From Escherichia phage UPWr_E1: a DNA stretch of 64,000 nucleotides. Where the stretch lies: sequence record PP418985.1. The stretch is one strand, 5' to 3'. Positions 9,499 to 64,000 of the stretch are shown piece by piece (positions within the stretch are counted from its first letter, which is position 1; each line of letters begins with the position of its first letter). The notes under the pieces are model-generated. The model was not told where the DNA came from and did no database searches. It saw nothing but the letters and a program-made list of their open reading frames with translations. The position numbers and the translations under genes were made by a program.

Positions 9499-11001
9499 TT
9501 AAATCTCGATTGTTTTCGTGGCATATTCGAATCGATCGGTGTTGTAAATTTTTATTCTTTCAAGCGCGTGTTTAAGAGCATAATTAAGGTGGCTAAACTG
9601 TTTCTTAGCATTCTTGCTCTTTGTCTTAACCGCCAAATGATCGATAAGATCCCAAACGGTAGCAATATCCTTAGAACCATGTTTACGCAATGCACGACCG
9701 ATACTCTGACGAACGATAGTTGATTCCTTCACTGGATGACCGAAAATAACATGATGCAAGTTCTTGATGGAAACACCAGTAGAGAACACACCATAAGACG
9801 CAACACAAATGATCCCTGTTTCCCCTTCCGCTAATTTCTTAAATTCATCACGTTCTTCTGTCTTAACTCCACCGTCAATATAATAAACCTTGTCGTGTAC
9901 CTTCTGCAACGCATCATACATAAGTTTTCCGTGCTTAGTATTGCGGAACATCAGGAATACGTTTTCGCCCTTCTTAGCGAGTTTTAGCGCCAAATTGCAA
10001 GCAAACTTATTTCGTCGTGGGTTAGACGTAATATACTTGATCTCTTCCGCATATTCTCTCCCCTTAACCGCGCTACATTCCTCATCGGTATAACGAAGGA
10101 AAAGACAGTTAATTTTCAGTTTTGTCACTTGGCCTTCTTCCATCAGGCGGTCAATACTCACGATCTTAGAAATATCACCGAAAAGCCCGACATACTGCAT
10201 CATGTTAGCTTTCCCGTCACGAGGGGAACCAGTCATGCCGATCTTAAATTGGCAATGATCCATATCAGTAACGATGTTTAGCAGGTTTTTAGCAGTGGCC
10301 TTGTGACATTCATCAACAATCACCATCCCGAATTGTTTAAACCATTCACGAGGTTGTTTACATGCTGATTGCCACGTACTAACAACGATCAGGCGATCTC
10401 CTACATTCTTAGTAGTACCACTCATGATAGTATGAATTGCCTCATAAGGAAACTGGCGATAATCAACAAAATCATCACGCATTTGCAGCACTAGCGACGT
10501 GGTAGGAACGATGATCAGCACTTTCCCTTCGTAGTTCTCTAAGTACCAGCGAGACAACATACAAGCAATCGCAGATTTACCAGCGGACGTAGGCAAAACT
10601 AACATACGGCGTTTATGATGAATACCTTCAAAGACAGCCTTTGATTGATACCAATGCGGGGTGATCCTGTTAGCACCGGAATATAATTCTAAGTCGTTAC
10701 ACCATTTTGTAATTTCTTCTTCTGTAACCTGTTCTTTCTCGAATAAGCGAGGGTCTACCCATACGCTATAGCCCATATTTTTAGCGAATATTCCCACGGT
10801 TTTAGTTAGGCCGATTGGCAACTTTCCATTGTAATCTAAAAGACGAATACGCCCATCCCATCCGCCGTATTTTACTCGTTTTTGAAACCGTGCACCTTCA
10901 ACTTCAAAGCTAAAATAATCCCTCATTTCTAATAAAATTGAATCGCTACATTCAATTTGAACATGGGAGTAGTTCAGAAAGTGAATTTTAATATCTTGCA
11001 T
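9499..11001 (-). CDS. uvsW: UvsW RNA-DNA and DNA-DNA helicase (SF2)
   Basis: Strong match to T4 UvsW (M-DIKIHF start, PTSAGKS Walker A, DECH box, VWDLIDH). ATG at 11001 chosen over the track's GTG at 11016 by alignment to T4. Confidence 0.9.
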   Translation of the reverse strand: MQDIKIHFLNYSHVQIECSDSILLEMRDYFSFEVEGARFQKRVKYGGWDGRIRLLDYNGKLPIGLTKTVGIFAKNMGYSVWVDPRLFEKEQVTEEEITKWCNDLELYSGANRITPHWYQSKAVFEGIHHKRRMLVLPTSAGKSAIACMLSRWYLENYEGKVLIIVPTTSLVLQMRDDFVDYRQFPYEAIHTIMSGTTKNVGDRLIVVSTWQSACKQPREWFKQFGMVIVDECHKATAKNLLNIVTDMDHCQFKIGMTGSPRDGKANMMQYVGLFGDISKIVSIDRLMEEGQVTKLKINCLFLRYTDEECSAVKGREYAEEIKYITSNPRRNKFACNLALKLAKKGENVFLMFRNTKHGKLMYDALQKVHDKVYYIDGGVKTEERDEFKKLAEGETGIICVASYGVFSTGVSIKNLHHVIFGHPVKESTIVRQSIGRALRKHGSKDIATVWDLIDHLAVKTKSKNAKKQFSHLNYALKHALERIKIYNTDRFEYATKTIEI

Positions 11002-16848: not shown

Positions 16849-16857
16849 TTAACATTA

Positions 16858-16882
16858 GCCGTCCTTCGGGGCGGCTTTTTTG
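16858..16882 (+). terminator. Rho-independent terminator
   Basis: agccgtcc-ttcg-gggcggct hairpin followed by ttttttg. Confidence 0.65.
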
Positions 16883-16935
16883 TATATATCATTAACATAA
16901 TTTTAGTTTACATATGCACATTATTAATACAGTTT

Positions 16936-17007
16936 GATTAAATTATGATCAAAACGAAGAAAGATCTTTAGAACATAGAAAATGTATCTTTGATTAATTA
17001 TTAATCA
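16936..17007. repeat. Intergenic 72-bp repeat, copy A
   Basis: gattaaattatgatcaaaacgaagaaagatctttagaa...attaatca; first 25 nt identical to copy B; contains palindrome aaagatcttt. Confidence 0.7.
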
Positions 17008-17084
17008 CCACATATTGTAACGCAAATGTTATACTCCGTAGGAGTTCGCGAAGCGATATCCTTTTGTGTAGTTTTTACATATAT

Positions 17085-17156
17085 GATTAAATTATGATCA
17101 AAACGAAGACTTATCTTATAGAATAATAAAAATTTGTTTCGAACATTTATTAATCA
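17085..17156. repeat. Intergenic 72-bp repeat, copy B
   Basis: gattaaattatgatcaaaacgaagacttatcttatagaataataaaaatttgtttcg...attaatca; 149 bp downstream of copy A. Confidence 0.7.
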
Positions 17157-17265
17157 ATTACTAGAAGTGTTTTATTGCTCGCTGTGCTCGCTTCCGCTAC
17201 GCGGATACTTGTATTTGTTATTAACTTGTAGTATGATATTGCTTTCTATGGAGGAAAATATTATG

Positions 17266-54430: not shown

Positions 54431-54434
54431 GATT

Positions 54435-54458
54435 AAGCCCGTCAATGACGGGCTTTTT
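54435..54458 (+). terminator. Rho-independent terminator after gene 2
   Basis: aagcccgtc-aatg-acgggctt hairpin followed by ttttt. Confidence 0.65.
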
Positions 54459-54460
54459 TA

Positions 54461-54715
54461 TTATAGATCGATAGCATGAGCATAACCATGTAAGAAGTCT
54501 TTTAATTCTTCCTTATTGGTAACACGCTGTAAAATCTCTAATGCCTTGTCGCGATCACGTAATGCACCTGAAAGGGATTTTATTTGGTCATCCCTTTCTG
54601 CAATCTGCTTAAGCAGATCTGTATTGCATTTAGACAAATAGAGAACTTCACCCCGCAATGTTGCCAATTCGTTGTCCAAACGATCATAGAGTTTTAACAA
54701 AATGTCTTCTGTCAT
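54461..54715 (-). CDS. Hypothetical coiled-coil protein (84 aa)
   Basis: ORF antisense to the gene 2/3 cluster; heptad-like pattern; no T4 counterpart recalled at this position. Confidence 0.4.
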   Translation of the reverse strand: MTEDILLKLYDRLDNELATLRGEVLYLSKCNTDLLKQIAERDDQIKSLSGALRDRDKALEILQRVTNKEELKDFLHGYAHAIDL

Positions 54716-54784
54716 AAGAAGTCCTCGTATAGTACCCGTTTTATTTATTACTGTATAAAAATATAGTTATTGGTTAAAACATAA

Positions 54785-54827
54785 CCAAAACGAAGAAAGA
54801 TCTTTAGAATAATAAAAATTTGTTTCG
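54785..54827. repeat. Third copy of the intergenic repeat (core 43 bp)
   Basis: ccaaaacgaagaaagatctttagaataataaaaatttgtttcg, near-identical to the core of copies A and B at 16936..17156. Confidence 0.7.
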
Positions 54828-54904
54828 GTTAAAAAGTAGTCAGTGCCTACGGCACGTCGCAAAGCGACAATTGTTAATAAATATTTTCATTTGAGGAATC
54901 AGTA

Positions 54905-55495
54905 ATGTCTAATCTCTTTAACTATGCTAACCCTAGCAACTGGCAGATCAATATTCCAGATGGACAACTAACAAAAGGCTTTACTTTAAATGCTCAAGGT
55001 GTTACACTTCCTGCTATAACCATTCCACCGACTAAGCAAGTTGCTGGTCAATATGGTTTGGCGGTCGCTGATTATCCGTCTAGTCATGTAGAGTTTGACC
55101 CGTTGGTAGTCCGGTTTATTGTCGATGAGCATTTGGAAAGCTATCTAAACCTTTACACATGGATGCTTTCTATAGTAGACTACAATAACGGTAACTCCAC
55201 TGCGTGGAAGGATTCAATGCCGGAAGCCGTTCAAGTTCACATGATGGACAATGAACGCCGTAACATTGTATGCACCTTTAACTTTTATGGTTGTTGGTGT
55301 TCACAATTGGGGGAACTTGAGTTAACATACACCGATGATATGCATGAATCTCTGGTATGTACTGCAATTCTTCCATTTAAAACAATGAGCATTGAACGTG
55401 ATGGTCAACTGATCGTTCCTCGCCCTGCAATTCAGGCGGCGGATCGTCAGCGAGTGGAAGGTATTAAAGCTATGCACCCTGCTTTTAGAAAGTAA
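54905..55495 (+). CDS. 3: Tail completion / sheath stabilizer protein gp3
   Basis: 196 aa (T4 gp3 176 aa); position between genes 2 and 1. Confidence 0.55.
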   Translation: MSNLFNYANPSNWQINIPDGQLTKGFTLNAQGVTLPAITIPPTKQVAGQYGLAVADYPSSHVEFDPLVVRFIVDEHLESYLNLYTWMLSIVDYNNGNSTAWKDSMPEAVQVHMMDNERRNIVCTFNFYGCWCSQLGELELTYTDDMHESLVCTAILPFKTMSIERDGQLIVPRPAIQAADRQRVEGIKAMHPAFRK

Positions 55496-56451: not shown

Positions 56452-56918
56452 TTATGACCCCGTTTCGAGAATCCGTTAAAGGTACATATGCGGCGGTTAA
56501 ATTCACTGAGGATACACTAGACCGCATTGAAAAATTGCAGGAGTTCTACGACCTGCCTAATGCCGTTCCTCGTGATAAACTGCATAGTACTATCTTATAT
56601 TCTCGTGTTTATGTTCCGTTTATCCCAGAAGAAGGGGAGAAGTTCTTAGGCTCTCTATGCCATCTGAAAGTGTTTGAAACTCAATCCGGTACTAATGCGC
56701 TTGTGCTGGCATTTGAAAGCGACTACATGCAATTCAGACACGATATCGGCACTGCTTTAGGTGCGACGTGGGATTATCCTGAATATGTACCGCATATCAC
56801 GCTTTCTTATGATGTTGGTGCGCGTAAATTTGGCACTGACCTAGAGTTCGATTTAGAGATTGTCCGATCTCATGAGTATGTCGAAGATCTAGATCTGGAG
56901 TGGACGACCAAACTGTAA
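56448..56918 (+). CDS. 57B: 57B-like 2H phosphoesterase (LigT-like) protein
   Basis: 156 aa (T4 57B 152 aa); two H-x-T/S-x motifs (HSTILY and HITLSY) typical of the 2H phosphoesterase fold. Confidence 0.6.
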   Translation: MIMTPFRESVKGTYAAVKFTEDTLDRIEKLQEFYDLPNAVPRDKLHSTILYSRVYVPFIPEEGEKFLGSLCHLKVFETQSGTNALVLAFESDYMQFRHDIGTALGATWDYPEYVPHITLSYDVGARKFGTDLEFDLEIVRSHEYVEDLDLEWTTKL

Positions 56919-62560: not shown

Positions 62561-62950
62561 ATGTTTAAATTATCTCAAAGAAGCAAAGATCGGCTTGTTG
62601 GTGTGCATCCTGATCTGGTAAAAGTCGTTCATCGTGCATTAGAACTGACTCCGGTCGATTTTGGTATTACAGAAGGTGTACGTAGTCTCGCAACGCAAAA
62701 GAAATATGTTGCGGAAGGTAAATCTAAGACTATGAAATCTCGTCATCTTCACGGTTTCGCGGTTGATGTTGTAGCGTATCCGAAAGATAAAGATACATGG
62801 AACATGAAATATTACCGCATGATCGCTGATGCATTTAAACAAGCTGGTCGAGAATTGGGTGTTCCTGTTGAGTGGGGCGGGGATTGGACTAGTTTTAAAG
62901 ATGGTCCTCATCTACAATTGCCACACAGCAAATACCCAGATCCAAAATAA
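62561..62950 (+). CDS. Peptidase M15-family (VanY / L-alanyl-D-glutamate peptidase-like) cell-wall hydrolase, putative endolysin
   Basis: Zn-ligand-type motifs SRHLHGFAVDV and GGDW...DGPHLQ typical of M15 peptidoglycan peptidases; 129 aa; GGGGG Shine-Dalgarno. Confidence 0.7.
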   Translation: MFKLSQRSKDRLVGVHPDLVKVVHRALELTPVDFGITEGVRSLATQKKYVAEGKSKTMKSRHLHGFAVDVVAYPKDKDTWNMKYYRMIADAFKQAGRELGVPVEWGGDWTSFKDGPHLQLPHSKYPDPK

Positions 62951-63006
62951 AATATTAACCATCAACGGGGAGACAATCTAAGGATCTCTCCCCGTTCACT
63001 GGAGAC

Positions 63007-63498
63007 TTGACAATGAATATTGATGTAAAATTAGAAAGTAAAGATTTGATTTATGCTGCATGTGTTTCTGCCGTAGATGGCATCATAGAACGCCGTAAGC
63101 GACGCAATTTTGCTGATGACCTAGATTCCATCGTCTCAATCAATTTAGGGCGTCAAACAGGGCATACAGACGCTACAATCAAGTTATATGACCATTATAC
63201 GCGAAAAGGATACAGTGTCTTTATCGTTTCGACAACGCGGGAACATGTCAAAACGATCCGAGATCGCGGTCGCGGTGAAAATGTAAATATTTCAAATGTA
63301 GATTGTACGTCGATCCGAACTTTCCTGAATCCTATTACATGGCGAGGTCGTCGGCTTGACAAAACAATCTTTATCCTAGATACTACCATGCGCGGATTTA
63401 CTGACAGCGTATTGCAGTTTTTAGAATTAAATCGACTTAGTGTTGGAAGGGGTAGTGTAGAAGACCAACCTATTTTCATTGGCTTAGGCATCAACTAA
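63007..63498 (+). CDS. Hypothetical protein (163 aa)
   Basis: ORF after a hairpin; basic, Arg-rich. Confidence 0.45.
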   Translation: MTMNIDVKLESKDLIYAACVSAVDGIIERRKRRNFADDLDSIVSINLGRQTGHTDATIKLYDHYTRKGYSVFIVSTTREHVKTIRDRGRGENVNISNVDCTSIRTFLNPITWRGRRLDKTIFILDTTMRGFTDSVLQFLELNRLSVGRGSVEDQPIFIGLGIN

Positions 63499-63633
63499 TG
63501 AAAAATAAAGATAGCGTAGCTCGTCGATTCCGTGCTACAATCAATAAGAATCGTAAAGTCCAACCTGATAAACTCTATGGGGTTTTGGTTGGAAAAGTTA
63601 ATGACGAACGTCCTGATCTATAAGAGGTGAATT

Positions 63634-64000
63634 ATGGAATTTAAAGCAATTCAAATCATGAAAGGTGAGCATAAAGGTACTATTATTGGTGGACATTTCG
63701 CGCCTATGATTCTGGTATCAGAACCGAAAGCACTGATCGGCGCTAAAGTAATTGTTAGTAAAACTTTCGCAGAAGACCATGTGATCACCGCAGAAGACGT
63801 AGATTCGCTGGCACTGCACACAACTAGCTTCCGTCCGGTGATTGTAGATAATGGTGCTCCTGTTGTCGAAGGTGGTCAGCACCTAAATGTTAACGTATTG
63901 TTACGAGAAATGTTACTTGACGCGGTTGAACATCCTGAGAAGTACCCGCAGCTTACAATTCGCGTTTCTGGTTACGCAGTGCGCTTCAATAGTCTGACTC
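63634..64000 (+). CDS. grcA: Autonomous glycyl-radical cofactor GrcA/YfiD-like protein (3' end beyond window)
   Basis: [12 protein letters not shown]...[23 protein letters not shown] is near-identical to the remembered C-terminus of E. coli GrcA, including the RVSGY glycyl-radical motif. Confidence 0.85.

What the first reader, a model, noticed from the sequence alone, without database searches (positions are those of the whole stretch)
54785..54827. Third copy of the same repeat in the divergent region between the 84-aa ORF and gene 3
ccaaaacgaagaaagatctttagaataataaaaatttgtttcg matches the core of the 16936..17156 repeats about 37 kb away. Both loci are non-coding regions near points where transcription direction changes, consistent with a shared regulatory site or a site used in modular recombination.
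Basis: seen in the sequence. Interest (0 to 1): 0.4.

Follow-up and report, generated by a model that had tools for sequence, protein, structure and literature searches.

The report
Structured intergenic repeat shared between coliphages
The flagged 43 bases are the centre of one of four copies of a roughly 100-base hairpin-forming non-coding module that RB49-like coliphages share with an unrelated E. coli prophage; the repeat is real and conserved, and it is not the known promoter cassette of these phages, but its function is only inferred.

Summary
Confirmed: the repeat is real. The window is a Krischvirus (RB49/phi1-like) genome. The 43-mer at 54785-54827 lies inside copy C (54770-54868) of a composite element. 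That element is a 77-bp AT-rich imperfect palindrome followed by two adjacent GC mini-hairpins with 3-nt loops. Copies A and B sit at 16934-17056 and 17083-17205. A fourth copy, D, lies outside the window between genes 35 and 36. All four point towards the downstream gene.

The same 77-bp core plus twin hairpins occurs once in a family of E. coli prophages. There it sits in a non-coding control region that also holds an iteron cluster. It was found nowhere else.

It is not a PeSL: it has no sigma-70 consensus, no G/C-tract stem and no family-level sequence similarity. It matches no Rfam family.

Stem positions keep pairing through changes across five lineages. Twin mini-hairpins occur in phi1 only at these loci.

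One deposited genome (LF73P4) carries reciprocal C/D hybrid junctions, equivalent to an 87-kb inversion. A homing-endonuclease cassette abuts the hairpins in two others.

Best guess (about 0.35): a DNA-structure unwinding/hairpin signal of replication or transcription control regions, which is also a substrate for homologous recombination. The function is inferred, not shown.

The parts
54770..54842 (+). Copy C, 77-column core: an AT-rich (about 75% A+T) imperfect palindrome, TTGGTTAAAAC...GTAGTCA.
   Evidence: Covariance-model hit at 54770-54845, 91.4 bits, E=2.7e-16. Ungapped alignment with copies A, B, D and the prophage copy. Sequence read.
54771..54776 (+). 5' arm of outer helix H0 (TGGTTA). 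It pairs with 54837-54842 (TAGTCA).
   Evidence: Alignment columns 2-7 with 69-74: 97.8% of cells paired across 15 sequences. A-U changes to G-U and U-A to U-G between lineages.
54837..54842 (+). 3' arm of outer helix H0.
54783..54794 (+). 5' arm of inner helix H2 (AACCAAAACGAA). It includes the invariant box CAAAACGAAGA.
   Evidence: Columns 14-25 with 51-62: 83.9% paired. Column pair 14-62 shows AU, CG, GU and GC with no mismatch. Slid controls give at most 54% paired.
54819..54830 (+). 3' arm of inner helix H2 (TTTGTTTCGGTT).
54797..54806 (.). Perfect 10-bp palindrome AAAGATCTTT, with a GATC at its centre, at the apex of the core. It is palindromic only in the Krischvirus copies A, C and D.
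   Evidence: Read directly. Not conserved in copy B or the prophage.
54843..54855 (+). Mini-hairpin HP1: GTGCC-TAC-GGCAC.
   Evidence: Mini-hairpin scan and folds. The stem sequence differs in A (CTCC-GTA-GGAG), B (TCCGC-TAC-GCGGA) and the prophage (GCAACC-GAA-GGTTGC; GACGCTC-CCT-GAGCGTC), yet a hairpin is kept.
54856..54868 (+). Mini-hairpin HP2: GTCGC-AAA-GCGAC. The loop is GAA in copy D, in copy A and in some copy C variants.
   Evidence: Twin mini-hairpins occur in the whole phi1 genome only at the A, C and D loci (3 observed, 0.17 expected).
54876..54883 (+). AATAAATA, a late-promoter-like motif 21 nt upstream of the gene 3 start codon. Context, not part of the repeat.
   Evidence: Motif search. 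Literature states that the first T of TATAAATA is variable (A or T) in RB49 late promoters (PMC1524935). Copy D is followed by a perfect TATAAATA.
54742..54749 (-). AATAAATA on the minus strand, 26 nt upstream of the 84-aa ORF. Context: a divergent late-promoter-like motif.
16934..17010 (+). Copy A core.
   Evidence: Covariance-model hit, 79.3 bits, E=1.2e-13. Blastn.
17033..17056 (+). Copy A twin mini-hairpins: ACTCC-GTA-GGAGT and TCGC-GAA-GCGA. The second contains the GCGAAGC motif.
17083..17159 (+). Copy B core, in tandem with A (period 149 bp).
   Evidence: Covariance-model hit, 68.5 bits, E=2.7e-11.
17193..17205 (+). Copy B single mini-hairpin: TCCGC-TAC-GCGGA.

Best explanation
The flagged sequence is copy C of a four-copy, genus-wide composite cis-element that works through nucleic-acid structure rather than as a promoter.

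Each unit has two parts. The first is a 77-bp AT-rich imperfect palindrome that can fold as one long hairpin or cruciform (outer helix H0, inner helix H2). The second is two adjacent GC-rich mini-hairpins with 3-nt loops, mostly of the G-N-A type (GAA, GTA) on one strand or the other. That loop type makes exceptionally stable DNA mini-hairpins.

Proposed mechanism (inferred):
- When the region is unwound by supercoiling, transcription or replication proteins, the AT-rich palindrome melts easily.
- The mini-hairpins snap out and hold the DNA in an open, SSB-resistant structured state.
- That state marks an entry or initiation site for replication or priming machinery (origin-like or ssi-like), and possibly for the clamp-dependent late-transcription apparatus next to it.

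Because the copies are 80-93% identical over 75-110 bp in a highly recombinogenic T4-type phage, they also act as sites of homologous exchange.

Shown here: the repeat, its conserved architecture and length, pairing maintained through changes, its exclusive link with twin mini-hairpins, its presence beside iterons in a prophage, and recombinant junctions in one genome. Inferred: extrusion, and any role in replication or transcription.
For: 1. Family and conservation. There are three copies in the window and a fourth between genes 35 and 36. All point towards the downstream gene, and all are present in the 58 Krischvirus records.

2. Cross-family conservation. The same 77-bp core is 74.7-81.6% identical over 75-76 nt to all four Krischvirus copies and aligns without gaps. 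Together with twin mini-hairpins it occurs once in a family of about 35-kb E. coli prophages, where the flanks are unrelated.

3. Origin-like context in the prophage. The core lies in a 1.25-kb gene-free divergent region with two more twin-hairpin sets. Seven same-orientation iterons (GTGTAGGTT, up to 1 mismatch) lie 390-510 bp away. The iteron pattern gives 14 hits in the whole locus against 2.1 expected.

4. Structure. H0 plus H2 are 88.5% paired, against at most 50% for slid controls. One column pair shows four pair types with no mismatch. Folds have z about -3.5 with both RNA and DNA parameters. The hairpin stems differ completely between lineages, yet the hairpins persist.

5. Specificity. 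Twin mini-hairpins occur in phi1 only at these loci (3 observed vs 0.17 expected).

6. Literature. GCGNAGC and CCGAAGG DNA mini-hairpins are reported at phage G4 priming origins, at RSF1010 ssiA next to iterons, and in N4 hairpin promoters (PMC13037366). Copies A and D contain GCGAAGC. Both prophage hairpins contain CCGAAGG.

7. Recombination. LF73P4 has reciprocal C/D hybrids. A homing-endonuclease cassette is inserted exactly after HP2 in AV108 and phiS.

8. From my own knowledge of T4: the three Krischvirus loci lie within 3-6 kb of the map positions of T4 oriE (gene 5), oriF (uvsY) and oriG (gene 34). By my rough estimate this is weak, about p=0.05.
Against: - No replication data exist for RB49-type phages.
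- T4-type origins need a promoter reading into the unwinding element. No convincing sigma-70 promoter faces any copy, and a published RB49 promoter prediction lists none at loci A/B or C.
- The Krischvirus loci have no iterons.
- In the prophage the core is several hundred bp from the iterons, not adjacent to them.
- HP1 in copies B, C and D has its G-N-A loop on the opposite strand from HP2.
- The palindrome is imperfect (14 of 18 Watson-Crick pairs in copy C), which disfavours spontaneous cruciform extrusion.
- The strand bias from G-T/G-U pairs is small: 17 vs 15 standard pairs.
- Only about five independent lineages exist, so the covariation statistics are weak.
Confidence: 0.35

Rival explanations
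1. A double-stranded DNA regulatory site. The core is a composite binding site for a host or phage protein (for example Fis-type bending protein sites plus phased A-tracts). It acts as an upstream element of the adjacent late or divergent promoters.
For: - Copy C lies between two divergent AATAAATA late-like motifs, and copy D is 18 nt upstream of a perfect TATAAATA.
- In the prophage a TATAAATA 65 nt from the core is invariant in all variants while its flanks vary.
- The exact 77-bp length and a 30-nt block of near-invariant sequence (CAAAACGAAGA..ATCTT..TAGAA) are conserved.
- The 5' 15-mer of copy A (GATTAAATTATGATC) fits the Fis consensus G-N2-Y-A-W5-T-R-N2-C as I recall it.
- The orientation relative to the downstream gene is constant.
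Against: - Copies A and B have no late-promoter motif nearby.
- Only 2-3 of the late promoters in the genome carry the element.
- T4-type late promoters are not known to use upstream sites.
- No DNA-binding protein is shared between Krischvirus and the prophage at blastp E<=1e-3.
- Complementarity is kept at variable positions, which a protein site would not require.
- The Fis fit is imperfect in copies C, D and the prophage, and it was not scored with a tool.
Confidence: 0.2
2. A structured RNA. The plus strand is transcribed into a small RNA or leader of about 100-130 nt: a long AU-rich hairpin followed by two terminal hairpins. This RNA acts in trans or in cis.
For: - The orientation is constant relative to downstream genes.
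- G-U pairs are tolerated on the plus strand: column pair 23-53 is G-U in 13 of 15 sequences, and there are A-U to G-U changes in H0.
- The plus strand folds slightly better than the minus strand in the prophage copy (z -3.46 vs -2.18).
- U-rich tracts follow HP2 in copies A, B and D.
- The invariant box ATCAAAACGAA also starts the transcribed leader of two PeSL early promoters.
Against: - There is no promoter upstream of the core on the plus strand and no canonical terminator.
- There is no Rfam match.
- The 3-nt G-N-A loops are the DNA-type hyperstable motif. The genuine RNA terminator next door uses a UUCG tetraloop.
- The strand asymmetry is small.
- In copies C and D the late promoter lies downstream of the hairpins, so the element is not in the late mRNA leader.
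Confidence: 0.15
3. A variant PeSL-type cassette, or simply a recombination module. It would be a promoter/stem-loop cassette of the kind known in RB49/phi1, whose main significance is to provide homology for modular shuffling.
For: - It lies in intergenic regions of the same phages in which PeSLs were described.
- It carries stem-loops.
- In AV108 a TTGACA-17-TAGATT promoter plus a homing endonuclease sits directly after the hairpins, giving a PeSL-like layout.
- The LF73P4 junctions fall at the C/D pair and, for a second inversion, at a pair of true PeSLs.
- It shares the 11-mer ATCAAAACGAA with two PeSL leaders.
Against: - There is no sigma-70 consensus in any copy.
- The stems are not G-tract/C-tract stems placed within the promoter.
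- There is no blast similarity to PeSL copies beyond an 11-mer.
- Copies C and D lie in conserved virion modules and precede late genes, not ORFans.
- Conservation in an unrelated prophage, with compensatory changes, argues for a function of its own.
Confidence: 0.1
4. A selfish or relict mobile element: a MITE-like insertion with short flanking direct repeats and no function for the phage.
For: - The inner roughly 46 bp are flanked by short direct repeats (GGTTAAAA in copies C and D, TTGATTAA in copy A).
- The element is dispersed and has a patchy distribution in two unrelated phage groups.
Against: - The flanking 'direct repeats' are themselves parts of helices H0/H1 and covary with the inner arm.
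- There are no terminal inverted repeats typical of transposons, and no associated transposase.
- The copy number is fixed at four in 58 genomes, with no empty sites.
- Only two families were found in the viral, metagenome and genome collections.
Confidence: 0.08

Closest known systems
PeSLs (promoter-early stem-loops) of phi1/RB49 (Arbiol et al. 2010, PMC2839356)
   Same: They occur in the same phages, are dispersed intergenic repeats of about 100 bp containing stem-loops, and have been proposed (and here circumstantially seen) as sites of homologous exchange.
   Different: PeSLs carry TTGACA/TATAAT with a GGGG...CCCC stem and occur about 50 times, mostly in hyperplastic regions before ORFans. 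This element has no sigma-70 consensus, has twin triloop mini-hairpins, has four copies, precedes late genes at two loci, and has no sequence similarity beyond an 11-mer.
Single-strand initiation signals and mini-hairpin DNA at origins: RSF1010 ssiA/ssiB, and the phage G4/St-1/alpha3 complementary-strand origins (review PMC13037366)
   Same: Short GC stems capped by G-N-A loops (CCGAAGG, GCGAAGC). In the prophage they lie near an iteron cluster and on both strands.
   Different: No cognate primase (RepB' type) or ssDNA life cycle is known for these phages. Here the hairpins come as adjacent pairs attached to a 77-bp AT-rich palindrome. No priming has been demonstrated.
T4 replication origins oriF (uvsY) and oriG (gene 34): a promoter plus a downstream DNA unwinding element that forms an R-loop (my own knowledge of the Kreuzer and Mosig literature)
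   Same: AT-rich, easily unwound segments at a few dispersed loci in a T4-type genome. The approximate map positions are similar.
   Different: No MotA-type or sigma-70 promoter reads into the element. RB49-type phages lack MotA (PMC1524935). No homology to T4 sequences was looked for or found.
Phage N4 virion-RNA-polymerase hairpin promoters
   Same: 5-7 bp stems with 3-nt GAA or GGA loops extruded from duplex DNA.
   Different: No N4-type RNA polymerase is annotated in phi1, and a 35-kb prophage has little room for a 3,500-aa vRNAP (the gene content of the prophage's left part was not examined). Here the hairpins are paired and attached to a conserved palindrome.

Membership tests
PeSL (promoter-early stem-loop cassette) | Sequences identical or near-identical to the sigma-70 consensus (-35 TTGACA, -10 TATAAT) | tested here: not met
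   The promoter scan finds no plus-strand site at either locus, and the number of sites is at or below shuffle expectation. True PeSLs in phi1 show TTGACA-17-TATAAT/TATACT.
PeSL (promoter-early stem-loop cassette) | A stable stem-loop, typically polyG...polyC, placed within or next to the promoter boxes | tested here: not met
   The stems here are 4-6 bp mixed GC with 3-nt loops, in adjacent pairs, and are not associated with promoter boxes.
PeSL (promoter-early stem-loop cassette) | Sequence similarity to the multi-copy PeSL repeat family | tested here: not met
   The element's copies hit only each other in phi1. Against three PeSL copies the best match is an 11-mer.
PeSL (promoter-early stem-loop cassette) | Location mostly in hyperplastic regions, immediately upstream of ORFans | tested here: not met
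   Copy C lies before gene 3 and copy D before gene 36, both in virion modules. Copies A and B lie before the DprA-like ORF164 next to gene 24.
Iteron-type replication origin / ssi-type priming signal | A cluster of directly repeated initiator-binding iterons | tested here: inconclusive
   Present near the prophage copy: seven GTGTAGGTT within 120 bp. No iteron cluster was seen in the sequence around the Krischvirus copies, which was read by eye and not formally scanned for iterons.
Iteron-type replication origin / ssi-type priming signal | A hairpin with a G-N-A-capped mini-hairpin recognised in single-stranded form by a primase | tested here: inconclusive
   GCGAAGC and CCGAAGG motifs are present. 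Recognition and priming cannot be tested in silico.
Iteron-type replication origin / ssi-type priming signal | Demonstrated initiation of DNA synthesis at the site | not testable with these tools
   Needs replication mapping or a plasmid-origin assay.
T4-type origin (promoter + DNA unwinding element) | A promoter directing transcription into an AT-rich unwinding element | tested here: not met
   An AT-rich element is present, but no convincing promoter faces it. No promoter is predicted there for RB49 in PMC1524935.
Known RNA family (Rfam 15) | A match at or above a family's gathering score | tested here: not met
   There are no gathering-score hits in the whole window. Only chance-level hits (E>=0.05) appear at both loci.
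Intrinsic terminator | A GC-rich stem followed directly by a T-run | tested here: inconclusive
   HP2 of copy C and the hairpin of copy B pass a lenient scan. However, the stems are only 5 bp and the tails are T-poor. Genuine terminators lie upstream, at 54435-54455 and 16857-16876.

The most novel reading that the evidence does not exclude
The element is a previously unrecognised class of phage replication or entry signal: an AT-rich hairpin-forming unwinding segment locked open by twin hyperstable DNA mini-hairpins. On this reading it supplies the long-missing origins of MotA-less T4-type phages (Krischvirus) at three loci that parallel T4 oriE, oriF and oriG. It has also been exchanged with a temperate E. 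coli phage, where it works alongside an iteron origin. A more speculative variant is that the prophage keeps the element next to an invariant T4-type late-promoter motif (TATAAATA) so that a prophage gene is switched on by a superinfecting T4-like phage.
Probability: 0.2. Interest if true: 0.75.

Novelty: new variant of a known kind. Interest (0 to 1): 0.55.

Why it matters
- **Origins.** Pseudo-T-even phages such as RB49 lack MotA and middle promoters, so how and where they start replication is unknown. A conserved, structured, low-copy element at three loci is a concrete and testable candidate.
- **Gene flow.** Non-coding functional modules, not only genes, move between lytic T4-type phages and temperate coliphages. 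The two groups also share a gp37-like tail fibre and an LprI-like gene.
- **Genome stability and assembly.** 110-bp inverted copies can underlie large genome inversions, or assembly errors, in therapeutic-phage genomes.
- **Annotation.** The element should be kept apart from the PeSLs with which it could easily be confused.

Tried and rejected
- **Chance AT-rich similarity.** Rejected.
- **PeSL membership.** Rejected on four features.
- **Known RNA family.** None found.
- **Sigma-70 promoter within or facing the core.** I inspected both strands of all copies by eye and with the scan. Only weak matches were found.
- **DNA-invertase (hix/gix) site, IHF site, DnaA box, H-NS site.** Compared from memory with the consensus sequences. 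The half-site ATCAAAA resembles hix, but there is no 26-bp dyad, and the others match poorly. These were not tool-tested and I dropped them.
- **nut/boxA-boxB analogy.** ATCTTTA resembles boxA, but the spacing and loop type do not fit. Dropped.
- **Small ORF on the minus strand of the prophage copy (ATGAAGGAG...).** It is not conserved among variants. Rejected.
- **A first, loose collection pattern.** It returned only chance hits and cost one scan.
- **Representative bacterial genomes.** Only two chance hits. **Plasmids.** None.
- **A protein partner shared by Krischvirus and the prophage.** Only tail-fibre and LprI-like genes are shared. The prophage's neighbouring proteins have no PHROG family. 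A Pfam scan failed because of a coordinate error and I did not repeat it.
- **Extra diverged copies.** None found with the covariance model.
- **A transcriptome literature search.** Uninformative. The RB49 genome paper (PMC135041) is not held.
- **Three GenBank records ending at window 54751/2.** I first considered a physical terminus. An assembly break at the repeat is the simpler explanation.

Full report
**What the window is**

The region around the finding is 98-99% identical to Krischvirus genomes (RB49, phi1, GEC-3S and 55 others). In the window, the 84-aa ORF on the minus strand (54461..54715) is the homologue of RB49 ORF130. The downstream gene (54905..55495) is gene 3, tail completion and sheath stabilizer. 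The window runs antiparallel to the phi1 reference.

**Checking the observation**

The 43-mer is at 54785-54827 as quoted. It is a mosaic match: its left 24 nt are identical to copy A (16950-16973) and its right 23 nt to copy B. Within the window, blastn gives C vs B E=3e-12 and C vs A E=2e-9, with nothing else below E=0.8. A covariance model built later finds only these three sites in the window, at E=1e-11 to 3e-16. Chance AT-rich similarity is excluded.

**True extent and anatomy**

Aligning all copies shows a unit much larger than 43 nt.

- **Core.** A core of exactly 77 columns aligns without gaps. In copy C it is 54770-54842, TTGGTTAAAAC...GTAGTCA.
- **Hairpins.** The core is followed by two directly adjacent GC-rich mini-hairpins with 3-nt loops. 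In copy C these are GTGCC-TAC-GGCAC (54843-54855) and GTCGC-AAA-GCGAC (54856-54868).
- **Copy A** has its core at 16934-17010 and twin hairpins CTCC-GTA-GGAG / TCGC-GAA-GCGA at 17033-17056.
- **Copy B** has its core at 17083-17159 and one hairpin at 17193-17205.

The core is an imperfect palindrome. Outer helix H0 (columns 2-7 with 69-74) is paired in 97.8% of cells. Inner helix H2 (columns 14-25 with 51-62) is paired in 83.9%. Together they are 88.5% paired, against at most 50% when the partner is slid by 1-3 columns. Column pair 14-62 is A-U, C-G, G-U or G-C in different lineages and is never mismatched. Column pair 16-60 is C-G, U-G or U-A.

An alternative 5' hairpin (H1, columns 1-7 with 13-19) uses the same middle arm. 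Single-strand folds of copy C and of the prophage copy have z about -3.5 (copy C with both RNA and DNA parameters); copy A gives z -2.4 and copy B z -1.0. The plus strand pairs only slightly better than the minus strand. I therefore cannot decide between RNA, single-stranded DNA and cruciform forms from the sequence alone.

**A fourth copy and the orientation rule**

Fetching the whole phi1 genome showed a fourth copy, D, at 149926-150035. It is 92.7% identical to C over 110 nt, hairpins included. It lies after the gene 35 terminator and 18 nt before a perfect late promoter TATAAATA of gene 36. All four copies point towards the downstream gene: ORF164 (DprA-like), gene 3 and gene 36.

Copy C sits between two AATAAATA motifs that face outwards, towards ORF130 and gene 3. 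The literature says the first T of the late-promoter motif is often A in RB49 (PMC1524935). Copies A and B have no such motif.

**Not a PeSL**

RB49/phi1 are the phages in which PeSLs (promoter-early stem-loops) were defined. A PeSL is a sigma-70 consensus promoter plus a stem-loop, often G-tract/C-tract. There are about 50 per genome, mostly before ORFans, and they are proposed to mediate modular shuffling (PMC2839356). True PeSLs in phi1 read ...TTGACAggggatc..gatccccTATAATacacacATCAAAACGAAAcac...GGAG..ATG.

The present element has no sigma-70 consensus on the relevant strand. Its stems are of a different kind, and it shares no similarity with PeSL copies beyond the 11-mer ATCAAAACGAA. Published promoter predictions for RB49 list nothing at loci A/B or C. 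Rfam has no match. Twin triloop mini-hairpins occur in the 164-kb phi1 genome only at loci A, C and D (3 observed, 0.17 expected), so they are a specific part of this element.

**Relatives elsewhere**

A degenerate pattern for the core found matches in IMG/VR in two groups only. One was Krischvirus contigs. The other was a family of about 35-kb proviruses from isolate genomes.

The second group are E. coli prophages present in about 1% of complete E. coli genomes: 58 of 5426 with a 2.1-kb query and 53 with the core alone. One example is inserted at ycdX in strain UTME-9. The prophage core is 74.7-81.6% identical over 75-76 nt to all four Krischvirus copies and has the same length. It too is followed by twin mini-hairpins, GCAACC-GAA-GGTTGC and ATCCC-GAA-GGGAT. 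One variant has entirely different stems, GACGCTC-CCT-GAGCGTC and TGC-GAA-GCA.

Nothing else turned up. There were no other phages and no plasmids. Only chance hits appeared in 185,579 representative genomes. Metagenomes returned only the same two families.

The prophage and phi1 also share a gp37-like tail fibre (42% amino-acid identity) and an LprI-like gene (ORF262, 67%), so gene flow between the two groups is documented. Otherwise the prophage is unrelated: its capsid resembles those of diverse temperate phages.

**Context in the prophage**

The single prophage copy lies in a 1.25-kb gene-free region from which genes diverge. That region also holds:

- two more twin mini-hairpin sets, one of them inverted;
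- seven same-orientation iterons GTGTAGGTT within 120 bp, 390-510 bp from the core;
- a canonical TTGACA-17-TATACT promoter.

This is the layout of a replication/early-control region. That reading is an inference; no initiator gene was identified. A TATAAATA motif 65 nt to the left of the core, facing the leftward 152-aa gene, is invariant in every prophage variant although its flanks vary.

**Meaning of the hairpins**

The loops are GAA, GTA or their complements. Copies A and D contain GCGAAGC, and both prophage hairpins contain CCGAAGG. A recent review describes GCGNAGC and CCGAAGG as extraordinarily stable DNA mini-hairpins that bind SSB poorly. It reports them at the primase start site of phage G4, in ssiA of the RSF1010 origin, and in the hairpin promoters of phage N4 (PMC13037366). 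By contrast, the true RNA terminator 60 nt upstream of copy A uses a UUCG tetraloop. This tilts me towards a DNA-level role for the hairpins.

**Recombination**

In LF73P4 (OZ035795) the left flank of C (ORF130) is joined through one element to the right flank of D (TATAAATA and gene 36). The reciprocal junction, gene 35 terminator-element-gene 3, is also present. Whole-genome comparison shows this equals an inversion of the 87 kb between the inverted copies C and D. A second inversion in the same genome has junctions at a pair of true PeSLs. Only this one of 58 records has the hybrid, so a misassembly at repeats cannot be excluded.

In AV108 and phiS a homing-endonuclease gene with its own TTGACA-17-TAGATT promoter is inserted exactly after HP2. 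Some variants of copy C carry D-type bases and vice versa, which is consistent with gene conversion. The copies never bracket an insertion.

**Interpretation**

Shown here:

- a conserved, oriented, low-copy composite element;
- pairing maintained through sequence changes;
- horizontal sharing with a prophage;
- association with an iteron region in the prophage and with late-promoter motifs at three loci;
- recombinant junctions in one genome.

Inferred: what the element does.

I favour, at about 0.35, a structure-based DNA signal. In this model the AT-rich palindrome is an easily unwound segment and the mini-hairpins stabilise the open state. This would mark a replication or priming entry site, and possibly help the clamp-dependent late-transcription machinery that sits next to it. 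Homologous recombination between copies would be a side effect. From my own knowledge of T4, the three loci lie within 3-6 kb of the positions of oriE, oriF and oriG. That is suggestive but weak.

The main rivals are a duplex protein-binding upstream element (0.2), a structured plus-strand RNA (0.15), a PeSL-like recombination cassette (0.1) and a functionless mobile relic (0.08). The main weaknesses of my favoured view are the absence of any promoter facing the core, the absence of iterons in Krischvirus, the mixed strand placement of the G-N-A loops, and the small number (about five) of independent lineages behind the covariation.

**Verdict**

The element is distinct from every described family I could test. 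I rate it a new variant of a known kind (dispersed structured intergenic repeats of T4-type phages), of moderate interest (0.55).

Noticed in passing
outside the window; phi1 NC_009821 149926-150035 (L005 49926-50000 and L006 1-35): A fourth copy (D) of the element lies between genes 35 and 36. It is 92.7% identical to copy C, including both hairpins, and is followed 18 nt later by a perfect TATAAATA late promoter.
   Followed up: yes
L175-L178 (Krischvirus LF73P4, OZ035795): 56740-56851 and 141390-141509; also about 37.6 kb and 83.2 kb: The deposited genome differs from phi1 by two nested inversions. One has reciprocal junctions inside copies C and D (an 87-kb segment). The other has junctions at a pair of 92-bp PeSL repeats (phi1 about 42.6 and 123.6 kb). 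It is unique among 58 records, so it may be a real isomer or a misassembly.
   Followed up: partly
L173 (AV108, OR352938) 745-1345, corresponding to window 54874/54875; also phiS PP449093: A 534-bp homing-endonuclease gene with its own TTGACA-17-TAGATT promoter is inserted exactly after hairpin HP2, between the element and the gene 3 late-promoter motif.
   Followed up: partly
window 54751/54752: Three independently deposited records (kvi MN850615, Skers MW748999, pEJ01 OP114734) start or end at this same nucleotide, 18 nt left of copy C. The kvi record also lacks gene 3 and copy C. The likeliest cause is assembly breaks at the repeat, but a physical end or a coverage anomaly is not excluded.
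   Followed up: partly
L134 9330-9337 (minus strand); L151 13747, 14541, 15483, 15683: In the E. coli prophage, T4-type late-promoter motifs (TATAAATA) cluster in the control region and face the adjacent genes. The one upstream of the 152-aa leftward gene is invariant in all variants although its flanks vary.
   Followed up: partly
L134 9864-9984: There are seven same-orientation iterons GTGTAGGTT (plus degenerate ones) in the prophage non-coding region, with two further twin mini-hairpin sets at 9627-9656 and 9709-9732. This is probably the prophage origin.
   Followed up: partly
window 16991-17007; L151 15595-15611: The 17-bp palindrome TGATTAATTATTAATCA forms the 3' end of core A. It also occurs, identical, about 1 kb from the core in the prophage control region.
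   Followed up: no
phi1 42615 and 123613 (minus strand): The invariant box of the core (ATCAAAACGAA) is also the first transcribed sequence after the -10 box of two PeSL early promoters, the same two that form the second LF73P4 junction pair. CAAAACGAA occurs 8 times in phi1 against 2.3 expected.
   Followed up: partly
L151 145-3849 and 18874-19653 vs phi1 gene 37 and ORF262: The prophage tail-fibre protein is 42% identical over 572 aa to Krischvirus gp37. A prophage-edge LprI-family gene is 67% identical to phi1 ORF262. This is evidence of gene flow between the two phage groups.
   Followed up: partly
window 54431-54460 vs phi1 62925-63956: phi1, JSE, ECD7 and others carry an endonuclease gene (ORF130.1) between ORF130 and gene 2. 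It is absent from the window, where the gene 2 terminator (54435-54455) directly abuts the end of ORF130.
   Followed up: no
window 54751-54763 vs phi1 149911-149923: The 13-mer CTGTATAAAAATA just left of copy C is the reverse complement of TATTTTTATACAG just left of copy D. This is a small inverted flank of unknown meaning.
   Followed up: no
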